Below, piece by piece: positions 54,001-60,000 of a stretch of DNA of 64,000 nucleotides. The DNA comes from a virus (taxonomy: Duplodnaviria; Heunggongvirae; Uroviricota; Caudoviricetes). Made by a program: the position numbers. The stretch lies in IMG/VR virus record IMGVR_UViG_2718218360_000002, one strand, 5' to 3'. Every line of letters begins with the position of its first letter. Within the stretch, counting starts at the first letter, position 1.

Positions 54001-57000
54001 TGCGGCATGAGATGCCGGGAAAAATGGGCTGAACCATACCCGGCTGAGTGCGTTCTGGACCCGGGAGGAGGCTGTGCTGACAACGCAAAAACGAAAATTT
54101 GCGCTGGCGCTCATGTCCGGGAAAAACAAAACAGCGTCAGCCATTGCCGCCGGTTATTCGGCGAAGACCGCCAGGGTTAAAGGCTCGCAGCTGGCAAAAG
54201 ATCCTGAGGTGCTTGCGTTTATAGCCCGTAAACAATGCGAGACGGTGGAGGTGGATGAGGTTCCTGTTTACCGGCAGAAAAAATCAGAGCAGGAGGATAA
54301 ACCCCGTCGCCGTGAGGCGGCTGCAATACCACAGCCGGACGAAACAAATCCGGAGATGCCACCGCCCGTGGTGATATCTCCTGGTATTGAGTATATGGAG
54401 GACGGTCTTCCCGATCCGGTGAAAGCGATGGGGCGTCTTCTGGTGGAGAACATTAATACCGACCCCAGGCTGGCGCTGGATGCGGCTTATAAGCTGGCGC
54501 AGTTCACGCACCACAAAAAAGGGGATGCCGGTAAAAAATCGGCAAAAGGTGACGCGGCGAAAAAAGCGGCTAACCGTTTTGCGGTGCCACCACCACCCCG
54601 CCTGGTGGTGAATAATGATAATGAGGGCAACGGATGATACCTGTGTGGAGCACGGCCTGCCCGGACTGGGCAGAGCGCCTGAAAAAGGGGCTGTCGATTA
54701 TTCCGGCTCCGATTTATCCGGAGCAGGCCGCACATGCCCTGGCGATTTTTAAACAACTGCGGATTGTGGATGCACCGGGCAGCCCGACGTTCGGGGAGTC
54801 CTGCGCACAGTGGGTGTTTGACCTGGTGGCGGCCCTGTTTGGCTCCTACGATGCGCAGACCGGTGTACGCCATATCAAGGAAGTTTTTATCCTTATCCCC
54901 AAGAAAAACAGCAAGTCCACGCTGGCTGCCGGGATCATGATGACGGCGCTGTTACTGAACTGGCGGCAGGCGGCGGGCTACACCATTCTGGCCCCGACCG
55001 TGGAGGTGGCGGCTAACGCCTTCAACCCTGCCAGGGATATGGTACGACGGGACGATGATCTGGATGACCTCTGTCAGGTGCAGACACATATCCGGACCAT
55101 CACCCACAGGGTGACGGACACCACCCTGAAGGTGGTGGCTGCCGATCCGAATACGGTATCCGGTATCAAGTCCGTGGGGACGCTGATTGATGAACTGTGG
55201 TTATTTGGCAAGCAGTACAAAGCGGAGGACATGTTACGTGAAGCCATAGGCGGCCTTGCCTCCCGCCCGGAAGGGTTTGTGGTGTATACGACCACCCAGT
55301 CGAATGAGCCGCCAGCCGGGGTGTTCAGACAGAAACTGCAGTACGCCCGGGATGTCCGTGACGGCAAAATTCATGATCCGCACTTTCTGCCGGTGATTTT
55401 TGAGCATCCTCCTGAAATGGTGGAAAGCGGGGCTCACCTGCTGATGGAAAACCTCGCCATGGTTAACCCGAATCTCGGTTATTCGGTGGATGAGGCTTTT
55501 CTGTACCGGGAGTACCGTAAAGCTCGGGAGGCTGGTGAGGAAGCATTTCGTGGCTTCATGTCAAAACATGCCAATGTGGAAATTGGTCTTGCCCTGCGTT
55601 CTGACCGCTGGGCGGGTGCGGATTTCTGGGAGCAGCAGGGCAGGCGCGTCAGCCTGGACGATATCCTGCAGCGCGCTGATGTGGTGACGGTGGGGATTGA
55701 CGGCGGGGGCCTGGATGATCTGCTGGGAATGTACGTGATTGGCCGTGACAGGGAAACCCGCGAATGGCTGGGCTGGGGCCATGCCTGGGCGCATGAAACC
55801 GCGGTGGTCCGACGGAAGAGCGAGGCGTCCCGGTTTCAGGATCTTGTTGCCTGTGGAGATATGACCATTGTCCGGCGTGTCGGGGATGACACGGCGGAAG
55901 TGGCGGAATATGTGCGTCGCATTCATGAGGCTGAGTTACTGGACCATATCGGTATTGACCCGTCAGGGGTGGGGCAGATTCTGGATTCACTGGCGGAAGC
56001 CGGGATCCCCGACGGAATTGTGGTGGGGATAAGCCAGGGCTGGAAACTGGGCGGGGCCATTAAAACCACCGAGCGCAAACTGGCTGAAGGGGTGCTGGTG
56101 CATGGTGACCAGCCCCTGATGGCCTGGTGTGTCGGCAATGCCCGGGTGGAGCCTAAAGGTAACGCCATTCTTATCACCAAACAGGCCAGTGGACGGGGAA
56201 AAATTGACCCGCTGATGGCGCTGTTCAATGCGGTCTCCCTGATGTCCCTTAACCCGGAACCGAAAAAGAAAGAATATGCGGTTTTTTTCATATAACCCTG
56301 TTCACACTGTAACCATCATGAACCGCTGCGGCGGTTTTTTTATTTTCAGGAGGCTGATGTGACTCTTAAACGGGCCTGTTCCCTGCTGACGGTGAAATCC
56401 TTCAGTGAGGATGAACGGGTGATCACCGGGATTGCGTCAACGCCTTCTCCGGATCGGGATGGTGACATCCTGGAGCCGGAGGGCGCGGAGTTTGGCAGTG
56501 CGATCCCGTTTCTCTGGCAGCATGACCATTCCCGCCCGGTGGGGCAGTGTACGGTGCGCCGGGTCAGCGAAGGGCTGGAAATCACGGCAACACTGGTGAA
56601 GCCCGTACCGGATATGCCGTCGCAACTGGCTGCCCGGCTGGATGAGGTCTGGGCGGCCATTAAGACCGGGCTGGTCAGGGGGCTGTCCGTGGGCTTCCGT
56701 CCCCATGAATACACCTTTCTGGACGGAGGCGGACTGCATTTTCTGCGCTGGGAACTGATGGAGGTGTCTGCCGTCACCATGCCCGCGAATGCGGAATGCA
56801 CCATCCGGACCATTAAATCTTACGACCGCCCGTTTTCTGCCGCGTCCGGCAACCGGAAACCGGTGGTGAAAATCGCATCTTCTGCCGGCGCTGCGGCACA
56901 GTCAACAACCGTTTTTCATAAGGAAAAGACCATAATGAATATTGGCGAACAGATTAAAAGTTTTGAAAACAAGCGTGCAGCGCTGGCAGCCTCCCTTGAG

Positions 57001-60000
57001 GAGGTCATGACCAAAGCCGCAGAGGAAGGGCGCACGCTGGATGTGGAGGAGGAAGAGCATTACGACAACACCGCAGCGGAAATCCGTCAGGTGGATGCGC
57101 ACCTGAAGCGCCTGCGTGAACTGGAAGCCGGTAAGGCCGCCACGGCGCAGCCGGTGAAACAGGCCGGTAACGGGAATGTGGCCGCGGTGGCTTCTGCGCC
57201 GGTGATCCGTGTGGAGCAGAAACTGGATAAGGGGATTGGCTTCGCCCGCTTTGCCAAATCGCTGGCTGCGGCTAAAGGCGTCCGATCTGAAGCCCTGGAA
57301 GTGGCCCGTCGTCAGTATCCGGATGACAGTCGTCTGCATCATGTCCTGAAATCGGCAGTGGGCGCGGGGACCACCACGGATCCGCAGTGGGCAGGCAGCC
57401 TGTCTGAATATCAGGAATACGCACAGGACTTTATTGATTACCTGCGTCCGCAGACCATTATCGGGCGATTTGGTCAGGGCGGGATCCCTGCACTTCGTCA
57501 GGTGCCATTCAATATCCGTGTGCACGCCCAGGTGTCCGGCGGTGCTGCCGGCTGGGTGGGTGAGGGTAAGGCAAAACCCCTGACGAAGTTTGATTTTGAA
57601 TCCATCACCTTCAGTCATGCGAAGGTGTCGGCCATTGCGGTACTGACGGAAGAATTGATCCGTTTTTCCAGTCCGGCTGCTGATGCACTGGTCCGTAATG
57701 CGCTGGCGGAAGCGGTGGTGGCGCGTCTGGATACAGACTTTGTGGACCCGAAAAAAGCCGCAGTGGCAGATGTCTCCCCGGCGTCCATCACCCATGATGT
57801 GAAGGGCACGGCATCAACCGGTAACCCGGATGCGGATGCCGAGGCTGCGTTTGGACAGTTTGTGGCAGCAAACCTGCAGCCCACCGGTGCGGTCTGGCTG
57901 ATGTCCAGCACCAATGCCCTGGCACTGTCCATGCGTAAAAATGCGCTGGGTCAGAAGGAATACCCGGACATGACCCTGCTGGGTGGCTCCTTCCAGGGGC
58001 TGCCGGTGATTGTCTCCCAGTACGTGGGTGACCAGCTGGTGCTGGTGAATGCCCCGGATATTTATCTGGCGGATGACGGCGGCGTGGCAGTGGATATGTC
58101 CCGCGAGGCATCACTGGAAATGCAGTCTGAGCCGGGCGGCGACAGTACCACGCCGTCCCCGGTGGAGCTGGTTTCCATGTTCCAGACAGGCAGCGTGGCC
58201 ATCCGTGCGGAGCGCTGGATCAACTGGCGTCGTCGCCGTACTGCGGCGGTGGCGGTGATCACCGGAGTGAACTACGGCAGTGCGTCCGGCGGCTGAGTCT
58301 GATAAGGAGGACGGGAGGCGTGCGCCTCCCGTAACAGGTTATGGCAAAGATCCGATATCTGCAGGGCACGCATGATGCCCGGGCCGGGGATATCCGTGAT
58401 GTGGCACAGCCGTGTGCGGAGGTGCTGGTTCGCCTGGGAAAGGCGGAGTACATCACGGTGCGACGTCCGGCAGGTCAGAAAAAGAAACGTGATGCGGAGC
58501 ATGGCGAATGTGGAACCTTTTACGGCGAACCCGAAAAAACCAGAAATCAGGACGTGACGTAAGAGAGGCGGGCTGGACCAGCCTGTTTCAGGCGGTGGCT
58601 GAGCCCTTTTCCGGCGCCTGGCAGCAGGGCGTGAAGCCGATCCTGAAGCCGTCCTCTCCTTTCATGCGGTGTTTGCATGTATTTCGCTGATATCCCAGGA
58701 TATCGCCAAAATGCGGCTGCGTCTTATGCAGACGGATGCGCATGGGATACGCAGGGAAACGCGCCGGGGGATATTGCCCGCCTCTGTCGTCGTCCAACGC
58801 CCAGCAGAACCGCATCCAGTTTTTTGAACTGTGGCTGAACGCCAAACTGCGTCATGGCAATACGGTGGTGCTGAAAATCTAATGCCCGGGGGCAGATCAA
58901 AGAACTGCGTATTCTGGACTGGAGCCGGGTTGAACCTCTGGTGGCGGATGACGGCGAGGTGTTCTACCGCATCACGCCGGACCGGAACTGCGGGATCACG
59001 GAGGCGGTGACGGTGCCTGCCCGGGAAGTGATCCACGACCGGTTTAACTGTTTTTTTCATCCGCTTATAGGATTGCCGCCGGTATGCCGCCGGGCTGGCG
59101 GCCACGCAGGGGCATCATATTCAGGAAAATTCGACGTCTTTTTTCAGAAATGGCGGCAGGCCGTCCGGGGTGATTGAGATCCCCGGCAGTATTACGGAAG
59201 AAAATGCGAAAAAACTGAAGAGCAACTGGGACAGCGGGTATACAGGCGAAAATGCGGGGAAAACGGCCATTCTGAGCAACGGGGCAAAATACAACCCCAC
59301 GACGTTTTCACCGGTGGATGCGCAGACGGTGGAACAACTGAAGATGACCGCTGAAATTGTCTGTTCGGTGTTCCGTGTCCCGGCCTACAAGATTGGCGTG
59401 GGACAACCGCCTTCCAGTGACAACGTGGAGGCGCTGGAGCAGCAGTATTATTCCCAGTGCCTGCAGACGCTGATTGAGTCCATTGAACTGTTACTGGATG
59501 AGGCGCTGGAAACGGGGGAAAACGAGAGTACAGAATTTGATGTCACCACGCTGCTGAGAATGGACAGTGAGCGGCGCATGAAAACGCTGGGGGATGCGGT
59601 GAAAAATACGCTTCTCACGCCCAATGAGGCCCGTAAACGGGAGAACCTGCCGCCCCTGGCCGGCGGTGATGCACTGTATCTTCAGCAGCAGAACTACAGT
59701 CTGGAGGCGCTGTCCCGTCGTGATGCCCGTGAGGATCCGTTCGCGTCTGCCGGGAAAACAGTTTCATCACAGCTGCCTGACGGCGCATCTGACGGTAATA
59801 AGGCAATCAGTGAAACAGAGCATGATGCCGGTGAAAGCGATGTTCAGGGGGATTACTGAGAAAATGACGGAACGGGAACTGTCCATTATTCGTGCACTGG
59901 GAGAAGAATTTTCCACAGTGCTGGCGGATTTACAGCGCACATTTGAGGAGAAAATAGCCGCGCAGGCACAAACGTTTGAAGAAAAACTGGCTTCTCAGTC

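What the first reader, a model, noticed from the sequence alone, without database searches (positions are those of the whole stretch)
56359..58296. Prohead protease and major capsid protein encoded as one fusion gene, with portal placed downstream
A single 645-aa ORF joins an N-terminal prohead-protease domain, a coiled-coil linker (a likely built-in scaffold/delta domain) and an HK97-fold capsid region. The portal follows rather than precedes it, unlike the classical HK97 order of portal, protease, capsid. This implies self-processing capsid assembly and is worth confirming biochemically.
Basis: partly seen in the sequence, partly recalled or inferred. Interest (0 to 1): 0.4.

Follow-up and report, generated by a model that had tools for sequence, protein, structure and literature searches.

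The report
Known phage protease–capsid fusion gene
This is a real but already annotated prophage gene of E. coli O157-type Stx phages that joins the head-maturation protease to the major capsid protein; it probably also makes free capsid protein from a conserved internal start site, and the portal gene next to it is broken in this copy.

Summary
The 645-aa ORF (56359..58296, +) is real. It has an S78 prohead protease (aa 1–158), a disordered linker (159–192), a two-helix delta/scaffold domain (193–263) and an HK97-fold capsid body. It differs by 1 nt in 1938 from phage 2851 (Pankowvirus), occurs in 1254 of 5426 complete E. coli genomes, and has been annotated "major head protein/prohead proteinase" since 2008. 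Fused protease–capsid genes are described in the literature, so the fusion and the portal-downstream order are already known. That order is conserved across Gamma-, Alpha- and Betaproteobacteria, in fused and unfused relatives alike.

New here: codon 193 (ATG 56935) is the ancestral capsid start. Of 188 related loci, 149 are fused and 39 unfused, some separated by a single in-frame stop. The fused genes keep a start codon, an AAGGA/GGAGG Shine-Dalgarno (often through a rare GGA codon) and weakly folded mRNA there. The gene therefore probably encodes nested products: a 453-aa capsid protein and a 645-aa protease-tethered form, comparable to lambda C/Nu3. This is inferred, not shown.

The downstream portal carries six frameshifts relative to phage 2851, so this copy probably cannot make particles if the sequence is accurate.

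The parts
54074..54637 (+). Terminase small subunit gene (187 aa)
   Evidence: Pfam Terminase_2, E 1.7e-8; annotated terS in phage 2851
54634..56295 (+). Terminase large subunit gene (553 aa), immediately upstream of the fusion gene
   Evidence: Pfam TerL_ATPase + TerL_nuclease; phrog_9; no indels relative to phage 2851
56320..56337 (+). Terminator-like hairpin followed by a T-run, between TerL and the fusion gene's RBS
   Evidence: Pattern scan; the motif gcgggtttttt...aggagg is conserved upstream of the gene in enteric relatives. Function not tested.
56348..56353 (+). Shine-Dalgarno AGGAGG for the full-length product, 5 nt before GTG 56359
   Evidence: Sequence; anti-SD duplex -10.3 kcal/mol
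56359..58296 (+). Full-length ORF: 645-aa protease-linker-delta-capsid fusion
56359..56832 (+). S78 prohead serine protease domain (aa 1-158). H55 (56521-56523), S110 (56686-56688) and E135 (56761-56763) are invariant in 43 sequences at 34-78% identity
56833..56934 (+). Disordered, sequence-variable linker (aa 159-192), homologous to the C-terminal tail of stand-alone proteases in unfused relatives
   Evidence: pLDDT < 50; variable with indels; aligns with the Comamonas protease C-terminus
56920..56925 (+). Internal Shine-Dalgarno-like AAGGAA, 9-10 nt before ATG 56935
   Evidence: Sequence; conserved at nucleotide level across the family, including use of the rare GGA Gly codon
56935..58296 (+). 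Proposed nested in-frame ORF: 453-aa delta domain + capsid protein, starting at Met193 (MNIGEQIKSFENKR...)
   Evidence: Met193 invariant in 16 relatives; stand-alone capsid proteins of unfused relatives start exactly here; TIGR01554 aligns from aa 204; mRNA around it is among the least folded in the gene. Translation from this site is inferred, not shown.
56935..57147 (+). Delta (scaffold-like) domain: two long helices, aa 195-223 and 229-262
   Evidence: AlphaFold2 model, pLDDT 81-88
57148..57222 (+). Disordered, variable stretch (aa 264-288); likely region of the maturation cleavage that removes the delta domain (inferred)
   Evidence: pLDDT < 50; variable in the alignment. The cleavage site is not determined.
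57223..58293 (+). HK97-fold capsid body (aa about 289-645)
   Evidence: Pfam PF05065, TIGR01554; Foldseek top hits Bxb1, D3 and HK97 prohead I/II capsid proteins, probability 1.00
58341..58562 (+). Conserved 73-aa ORF of unknown function between capsid and portal, overlapping the portal start
   Evidence: phrog_829 full-length, E 3.7e-39; homologues at the same position in Snodgrassella, Comamonas and enteric loci
58508..61087 (+). Portal gene, here a pseudogene. The HK97-type portal domain plus C-terminal repeat extension is split over at least 4 frames by indels at 58634, 58766, 58794, 58880, 59082 and 59828
   Evidence: PHROG/Pfam hits to fragments in different frames; alignment to the intact 859-aa portal of phage 2851; RefSeq marks the equivalent gene 'frameshifted' in strain FRIK2455

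Best explanation
This is the head-assembly gene of a Pankowvirus-type (long-tailed Stx-phage-like) prophage. It is one reading frame that most likely gives two nested products. Ribosomes starting at GTG 56359 make a 645-aa protein: an S78 serine protease, a flexible linker, the delta (internal scaffold) domain and the HK97-fold capsid body. Ribosomes starting at the conserved internal site (AAGGAA, then ATG 56935) make the 453-aa delta-capsid protein alone, which is identical to the stand-alone capsid protein of unfused relatives. Both products share the delta-capsid part, so they would co-assemble on the portal into a procapsid. The protease domains of the long form are then carried inside as covalent passengers, instead of being recruited through a free C-terminal tail as in HK97. 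After assembly the protease would cut away the linker, the delta domains and itself, leaving a mature capsid protein that begins somewhere near residues 265-292. Shown here: the ORF, the domains, conserved catalytic-type residues, both folds, the conserved gene order, and the conserved initiation signals. Inferred: use of the internal start, the ratio of the two products, co-assembly and the cleavage sites. In this window the downstream portal is frameshifted, so this copy probably cannot build particles without help, if the sequence is accurate.
For: Domains and folds. H55, S110 and E135 are invariant in 43 sequences at 34-78% identity. The fusion is genuine and widespread: 1 mismatch in 1938 nt relative to phage 2851; present in 1254 of 5426 complete E. 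coli genomes; 2406 hits, and 1171 clusters at 50% identity with E <= 1e-30, the best 150 almost all 630-690 aa and full length. Internal start: (i) Met193 is invariant while the preceding linker varies. (ii) All 26 fused genes from Gamma-, Alpha- and Betaproteobacteria carry ATG/GTG/TTG there, preceded at 6-10 nt by AAGGA or GGAGG. (iii) Wherever the motif runs through a Gly codon directly after Lys/Gln/Thr, that codon is GGA, although GGA is rare in the same genes (1/44, 1/46, 1/45, 2/65, 3/50, 3/57), which indicates nucleotide-level constraint. (iv) The surrounding 45 nt are among the least folded in the gene (window -3.5 against -12.4 +/- 4.2 kcal/mol; in the weakest 5% in 18 of 26 loci). 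(v) In 188 loci, 149 are fused. The start codon is at the exact homologous position in 112 of 149. An SD of <= -4.4 kcal/mol occurs in 91% against 25% of other in-frame start codons; in 23 of 27 clusters at 60% identity (binomial 8e-11); and in 8 of 8 clusters at 50%. (vi) Unfused relatives place the real capsid SD and ATG at the same nucleotides, and 12 differ from the fused state only by one in-frame stop codon. (vii) Stand-alone capsid proteins P0253 and P0268 begin at query residue 193.
Against: There is no protein-level or ribosome-profiling evidence for the 453-aa product, and I found no paper reporting it. The internal SD (-6.2 kcal/mol, 9-10 nt spacing) is weaker than the upstream one (-10.3), and within a single gene an SD of that strength is not rare (about 10% of codon positions); the argument depends on conservation. 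Lineages switch often between fused and unfused states (39 of 188 unfused). The initiation region could therefore be kept by selection acting during unfused periods, not by a need for it in the fused state. SD scoring used the E. coli anti-SD for all taxa. The fused/unfused classification rests on tblastn segments and could be misled by contig errors.
Confidence: 0.6

Rival explanations
1. Polyprotein only. Only the 645-aa fusion is translated, every capsid subunit carries its own protease, and the shell matures by about 400-fold self-processing. The internal SD/ATG is an unused relic of the ancestral capsid start.
For: There is a single annotated CDS in all records. The upstream RBS is stronger than the internal one. 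Frequent switching between fused and unfused states could preserve the relic. By my own rough estimate from general knowledge of T=7 shells, about 415 extra 21-kDa domains would still fit inside.
Against: The initiation signals persist in 8 of 8 clusters at 50% identity and in 23 of 27 at 60%. They are held by rare codons and coincide with a trough in mRNA structure, which is unexpected for an unused relic. An accessible SD plus ATG in E. coli would be expected to initiate regardless of whether it is under selection.
Confidence: 0.27
2. Artefact or decay: the fusion is a sequencing or assembly error, or a recent loss of a stop codon in a dying prophage, with no functional meaning.
For: The neighbouring portal is riddled with indels, and the two portal copies in the window differ by 8 indels but only 2 substitutions. 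That pattern raises the possibility of sequence errors or decay in this region.
Against: There are no indels in the 4.2 kb TerS-TerL-fusion stretch relative to phage 2851. The identical architecture is found in inducible, sequenced Stx phages, in 1254 E. coli genomes and in more than 1000 diverse protein clusters.
Confidence: 0.02
3. The N-terminal domain is a catalytically dead protease remnant that now acts only as extra scaffold, with maturation done by another protease or not at all.
For: TIGR01543 (the HK97 prohead protease equivalog) scores 45.3, below its cutoff of 59.
Against: H55, S110 and E135 are invariant across 43 divergent sequences. Pfam S78 is above its cutoff. The fold matches T4 gp21. 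No other head protease was found among the genes of the TerS-to-connector module that were scanned.
Confidence: 0.04

Closest known systems
The same gene in sequenced Pankowvirus / long-tailed Stx phages (Enterobacteria phage 2851 gp60, YYZ-2008 ACI32388, Stx2a_WGPS6, Stx2c phage 1717, many Stx1a phages)
   Same: 98-100% DNA identity, the same 645-aa ORF, the same TerS-TerL-fusion-small ORF-portal order; annotated 'major head protein/prohead protease'
   Different: In phages 2851 and YYZ-2008 the portal is an intact gene of about 860 aa. In this window it carries six frameshifts. No record annotates an internal start.
HK97 gp4 protease + gp5 capsid protein (separate genes; order portal-protease-capsid)
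   Same: S78 protease family, HK97 fold, and an N-terminal delta domain acting as built-in scaffold
   Different: Protease and capsid are in one frame here, and the portal gene lies after the capsid gene. From general knowledge: HK97 gp4 is encapsidated through its free C-terminal tail, whereas here the homologous tail is the covalent linker (inferred).
Unfused relatives of the same module (Comamonas testosteroni L038; Snodgrassella alvi L030/L034; 39 of 188 loci)
   Same: Same gene order, homologous protease, capsid, small ORF and portal; the capsid SD and ATG are at the same nucleotides
   Different: A stop codon, a 4-nt ATGA overlap or a frame change ends the protease at about 190-235 aa
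Nested protease/scaffold genes: lambda C/Nu3, HSV-1 UL26/UL26.5, HFTV1 gp17/gp17.5
   Same: A long product carrying the protease and a shorter in-frame product from an internal start share a C-terminal part that brings the protease into the procapsid (bioRxiv 10.64898/2026.09.13.751334)
   Different: In those systems the shared part is a separate scaffolding protein. Here it would be the delta domain plus the capsid protein itself. The internal start here is inferred from sequence only. The lambda protease belongs to a different protease family (general knowledge).
Fused protease-capsid genes of Arthrobacter phage clusters AM/AU/AN, Rhodococcus phage RRH1 and thaumarchaeal proviruses; NCBIfam NF045541 'prohead protease/major capsid protein fusion protein'
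   Same: The same kind of architecture, recognised and named in the literature and in annotation resources (PMC5513430, PMC6563490)
   Different: These are different sequence lineages. This protein scores 51.9 bits against NF045541 (cutoff 525), and the match covers only aa 48-287.

Membership tests
Peptidase S78 (HK97-type caudoviral prohead serine protease) | Match to the family profile above the curated threshold | tested here: met
   PF04586: 35.1 bits against a cutoff of 21, aa 48-152. The stricter equivalog TIGR01543 scores 45.3 against 59, i.e. below its cutoff.
Peptidase S78 (HK97-type caudoviral prohead serine protease) | Conserved catalytic His and Ser | tested here: met
   H55 (in WQHD) and S110 (in GLSVGF) are invariant in 43 sequences at 34-78% identity, as is E135. 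The catalytic role is inferred from family knowledge, not assayed.
Peptidase S78 (HK97-type caudoviral prohead serine protease) | Prohead-protease / herpesvirus assemblin fold | tested here: met
Peptidase S78 (HK97-type caudoviral prohead serine protease) | Proteolytic activity on capsid or scaffold substrates | not testable with these tools
   Needs biochemistry or genetics (S110A mutant)
HK97-family major capsid protein with delta domain | Profile match above the curated threshold | tested here: met
   PF05065: 52.7 bits against 24.2. TIGR01554: 78.3 bits against 27.5, covering aa 204-584.
HK97-family major capsid protein with delta domain | HK97 fold | tested here: met
   Foldseek against PDB: Bxb1, D3, HK97 prohead I/II and GTA capsid proteins, probability 1.00, E about 1e-9 to 1e-6
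HK97-family major capsid protein with delta domain | N-terminal helical delta domain that is removed on maturation | tested here: inconclusive
   Two long helices at aa 195-262 followed by a disordered stretch are predicted. Removal and the mature N-terminus cannot be tested here.
NCBIfam NF045541 prohead protease/major capsid protein fusion protein | Score above the model's cutoff | tested here: not met
   51.9 bits against a cutoff of 525; partial match at aa 48-287. Same kind of architecture, but not this family.
Nested in-frame protease/assembly-protein genes (lambda C/Nu3 type) | Internal in-frame start codon with its own ribosome-binding site | tested here: met
   AAGGAA 56920-56925 and ATG 56935. 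Conserved start plus SD in 91% of 149 fused genes against 25% of controls; 23 of 27 clusters at 60% identity; rare-codon and mRNA-structure signatures.
Nested in-frame protease/assembly-protein genes (lambda C/Nu3 type) | Two proteins actually produced from the one frame | not testable with these tools
   Needs western blot or mass spectrometry, or initiation-site ribosome profiling
Pankowvirus-type head module (TerS-TerL-protease/capsid-small ORF-portal-connector) | Gene order and near-identity to type phages | tested here: met
   98.3% identity over 7.5 kb to phage 2851 and YYZ-2008; order confirmed in all loci with sufficient flanking sequence
Pankowvirus-type head module (TerS-TerL-protease/capsid-small ORF-portal-connector) | Intact portal gene (needed for a functional module) | tested here: not met
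   Six frameshifting indels relative to the phage 2851 portal; fragments lie in four frames

The most novel reading that the evidence does not exclude
The 'fusion gene' is really a nested gene pair. A conserved internal initiation site at codon 193 supplies most of the capsid protein as a free 453-aa delta-capsid subunit. The 645-aa read-through form is a minority subunit whose job is to carry the protease into the procapsid by covalent attachment to a capsid subunit. Across Proteobacteria this module switches repeatedly between 'protease released at a stop codon' and 'protease tethered to capsid' through single-nucleotide changes, without disturbing capsid supply. That would extend the nested protease/scaffold strategy of lambda, herpesviruses and HFTV1 to the capsid protein itself. 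It would also mean that thousands of database entries for this family are missing a second product.
Probability: 0.6. Interest if true: 0.5.

Novelty: already known. Interest (0 to 1): 0.3.

Why it matters
The fusion and the gene order only confirm existing annotation of a very common E. coli O157 prophage module. The added value is the evidence for a nested capsid start. If it is real, it explains how a phage can fuse a low-copy enzyme to its most abundant structural protein without a stoichiometry problem. It also gives a natural example of cargo delivery into an HK97-type shell by covalent tethering, which is relevant to encapsulin and phage-capsid engineering. And it would correct how this large gene family is annotated. 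The frameshifted portal matters in practice: if the sequence is accurate, this prophage copy is probably defective in particle production unless a co-resident prophage complements it.

Tried and rejected
1. Sequence search against PDB chains gave only a weak capsid hit (Bxb1, E 0.002) and nothing for the protease, so structure prediction and fold search were used instead.

2. The full-length model's Foldseek hits were all capsid proteins. The protease domain had to be modelled separately.

3. SD strength in the window alone is not convincing: about 10% of codon positions score as well, and the junction ranks 6th of 51 in-frame start codons. The argument had to be made comparative.

4. My first ±8-codon search window for a junction start codon was too permissive. 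It was replaced by exact offsets, within-gene controls and clustering.

5. I considered whether the conserved K-G/K-E residues upstream of Met193 reflect an amino-acid constraint such as a protease cleavage site. That is disfavoured, because the Gly codon there is GGA although GGA is rare in the same genes.

6. The first viral-contig scan returned only close relatives. It was repeated with a distant branch as the query.

7. Literature searches for reports of internal initiation in protease-capsid fusions, for virion proteomics of phage 2851-type phages and for the source of NF045541 found nothing direct. Liu & Mushegian 2004 (PMC421614) is not held.

8. NF045541 membership was tested and rejected.

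
Full report
**Observation.** The ORF is there as described. It runs from GTG 56359 to the stop at 58296 (645 aa), with AGGAGG 5 nt upstream. Pfam finds Peptidase_S78 at aa 48-152 and Phage_capsid at aa 386-635, both above their gathering cutoffs. NCBIfam TIGR01554 (HK97 major capsid) covers aa 204-584. PHROG family phrog_617 matches end to end (profile 7-626 of 626, E 1.6e-260). The two-domain architecture is therefore a family property and not a local accident.

**Identity.** The 7.5-kb stretch 54000-61500 is 98.3% identical to Enterobacteria phages 2851 and YYZ-2008 (genus Pankowvirus) and to many Stx1a-, Stx2a- and Stx2c-converting phages. The 56300-59900 stretch is found in 1254 of 5426 complete E. 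coli genomes. The fusion gene differs from that of phage 2851 by one base in 1938 with no indel. GenBank records already name it 'putative major head protein/prohead proteinase' (YYZ-2008, FJ184280) or 'major head protein/prohead protease'. The same 645-aa protein heads a cluster of 9916 member sequences.

**Anatomy.** An AlphaFold2 model built on 43 sequences (mean pLDDT 72.8) shows:
- a beta-rich domain at aa 4-142;
- a disordered stretch at aa 143-192;
- two long helices at aa 195-223 and 229-262;
- a second disordered stretch at aa 264-288;
- the capsid body.

**Gene order.** TerS, TerL, protease/capsid, a small ORF, portal, a portal C-terminal extension (or a separate ORF) and the head-tail connector occur in that order in every related locus with enough flanking sequence. 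These loci come from Gamma-, Alpha- and Betaproteobacteria. The order is the same where protease and capsid are separate genes. Comamonas testosteroni L038 has a 193-aa protease, an 18-nt gap and a 467-aa capsid protein. Snodgrassella alvi L030/L034 have a 234-aa protease, a 23-nt gap and a 439-aa capsid protein. Portal-after-capsid is thus a feature of this module lineage and not a consequence of the fusion.

**What is known.** Fused protease-capsid genes are described for Arthrobacter phage clusters AM, AU and AN and for Rhodococcus phage RRH1 (PMC5513430), and for thaumarchaeal proviruses (PMC6563490). 'Major capsid and protease fusion protein' is a standard actinobacteriophage annotation term. 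NCBIfam holds a model named 'prohead protease/major capsid protein fusion protein', which this protein does not join (51.9 bits against a cutoff of 525). The family itself is large: 2406 hits in one search and 1171 clusters at 50% identity with E <= 1e-30, with nearly all of the best 150 being 630-690 aa and matched end to end. The finding as written is therefore already known.

**What the comparison adds.** Met193 (ATG 56935-56937) is invariant in 16 relatives at 73-98% identity, while the roughly 20 residues before it vary and contain indels. Several lines of evidence point to a working initiation site there.
- In all 26 fused genes first collected, down to about 32% identity, an in-frame ATG (GTG in L024, TTG in L021) lies at that position, preceded at 6-10 nt by AAGGA or GGAGG.
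- Where the motif runs through a glycine codon directly after Lys/Gln/Thr, that codon is GGA, even though GGA is rare in the same genes (1 of 44, 1 of 46, 1 of 45, 2 of 65, 3 of 50, 3 of 57 Gly codons). The constraint is on nucleotides, not amino acids.
- The 45 nt around the site are among the least structured in the gene (window -3.5 against a gene mean of -12.4 +/- 4.2 kcal/mol; AT 0.67 against 0.40). The site ranks in the weakest-folded 5% in 18 of 26 loci.
- In a larger set of 188 loci, 149 are fused and 39 unfused.
- In the fused genes the start codon is exactly at the homologous position in 112 of 149. An SD of <= -4.4 kcal/mol is present in 91%, against 25% of 5322 other in-frame start codons. 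After clustering, 23 of 27 clusters at 60% identity (binomial 8e-11) and 8 of 8 at 50% carry it.
- In unfused relatives the protease ORF ends 0-30 nt before the capsid ATG or overlaps it as ATGA. In 12 of them only one in-frame stop codon separates the two genes.
- Fused Candidimonas and unfused Comamonas junctions align base for base, with the true capsid SD and ATG of the latter lying on the internal motif of the former.
- Stand-alone capsid proteins in the 50% representative library begin at query residue 193 (P0253, P0268).

**Mechanism proposed.** The frame most likely yields a 645-aa protease-linker-delta-capsid protein and a 453-aa delta-capsid protein. Their shared part would let them co-assemble, so the protease enters the procapsid tethered to a capsid subunit. 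It would then remove the linker, the delta domains and itself. This resembles the nested protease/scaffold genes of lambda (C/Nu3), HSV-1 (UL26/UL26.5) and the archaeal virus HFTV1 (gp17/gp17.5), with the capsid protein itself as the shared module. Use of the internal start, the product ratio and the cleavage sites are inferences. I found no protein-level data.

The upstream RBS is stronger (-10.3 against -6.2 kcal/mol), and frequent switching between fused and unfused states might preserve the internal signals without a need for them in the fused state. I put about 0.6 on the nested model and about 0.27 on polyprotein-only.

**State of this locus.** The portal region (58297-61087) differs from the intact 859-aa portal of phage 2851 by 92 mismatches and 9 indels. 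Six of the indels shift the frame (58634, 58766, 58794, 58880, 59082, 59828). The 4.2 kb of TerS, TerL and the fusion gene have no indels. RefSeq also flags the equivalent portal as 'frameshifted' in strain FRIK2455. If the sequence is accurate, this prophage copy probably cannot assemble heads on its own. Biochemistry should use phage 2851 or a clone.

**Verdict.** The fusion and the gene order are already known and annotated. The conserved internal initiation region is the one point that goes beyond current annotation, and it can be tested directly.

Noticed in passing
window 1-3976 (fusion 3' part 1..1181, listed ORF 39..1181; portal ORF 1553..3976): The window begins inside a second copy of the same head module: the last 380 or so codons of another protease-capsid fusion gene, followed by another portal gene. 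Window 1 to about 18.8 kb continues into tail genes of a second prophage of the same type. The two fusion-gene copies differ by 1 mismatch in 1181 nt.
   Followed up: partly
window 58297-61087 compared with 1182-3976: The two portal regions differ by only 2 substitutions but 8 small indels. Relative to phage 2851, copy B has 6 frameshifting indels and copy A has 2. None occur in the adjacent 4.2 kb of TerS-TerL-fusion. Indels are strongly concentrated in the portal N-terminal 1.35 kb. This is either targeted decay of the portal in resident prophages or assembly error in repeated DNA; it is unresolved.
   Followed up: partly
window 59860-61087 (tandem array 60029-60621); L001 7509-10088; L038 8099-8857: In E. 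coli phages of this group the portal is 859 aa: an HK97-type portal (about 450 aa) fused to a C-terminal extension with 3.7 copies of a 162-nt (54-aa) repeat (97% matches) and a weak, below-cutoff CBM_5_12-like end. In Comamonas the portal is 471 aa and the homologous extension is a separate 252-aa ORF. This is a second fused/unfused pair in the same module. Function unknown.
   Followed up: partly
window 58341-58562 (+): A conserved 73-aa ORF (phrog_829, unknown function) lies between capsid and portal and overlaps the portal start. Homologues sit at the same position from Snodgrassella and Comamonas to E. coli, and the Snodgrassella L034 version carries a long Ala/Asp/Gly-rich (GADA-type) low-complexity tail. 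It is not annotated in the RefSeq record of phage 2851.
   Followed up: partly
window 56320-56337 (+): A terminator-like hairpin (GAACCGC-TGCG-GCGGTTT) with a T-run lies between the TerL stop and the fusion gene's RBS. The hairpin/T-run/AGGAGG arrangement is conserved in enteric relatives. It could modulate the transcript level or stability of the head genes; not tested.
   Followed up: no
window 53420-53785 (+): An HNH endonuclease gene sits just upstream of TerS, and also in Comamonas L038. This is the common HNH-terminase pairing of cos-type HK97-like phages.
   Followed up: no
L119, L120, L121, L140 (viral contigs): In several unfused relatives the protease and capsid genes are in the same frame, separated by a single TGA 9 nt before the capsid ATG and with almost no SD (-0.4 to -0.9 kcal/mol). 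This raises the possibility of termination-reinitiation coupling or stop-codon read-through giving a minor fusion product.
   Followed up: no
window 48828-50678 (+): A 616-aa ORF lies upstream of the lysis genes (endolysin-like 51332..51829, Rz-like 51814..52293). From memory it resembles the NanS-p type esterases common in Stx prophages. It was not scanned against any family library here.
   Followed up: no
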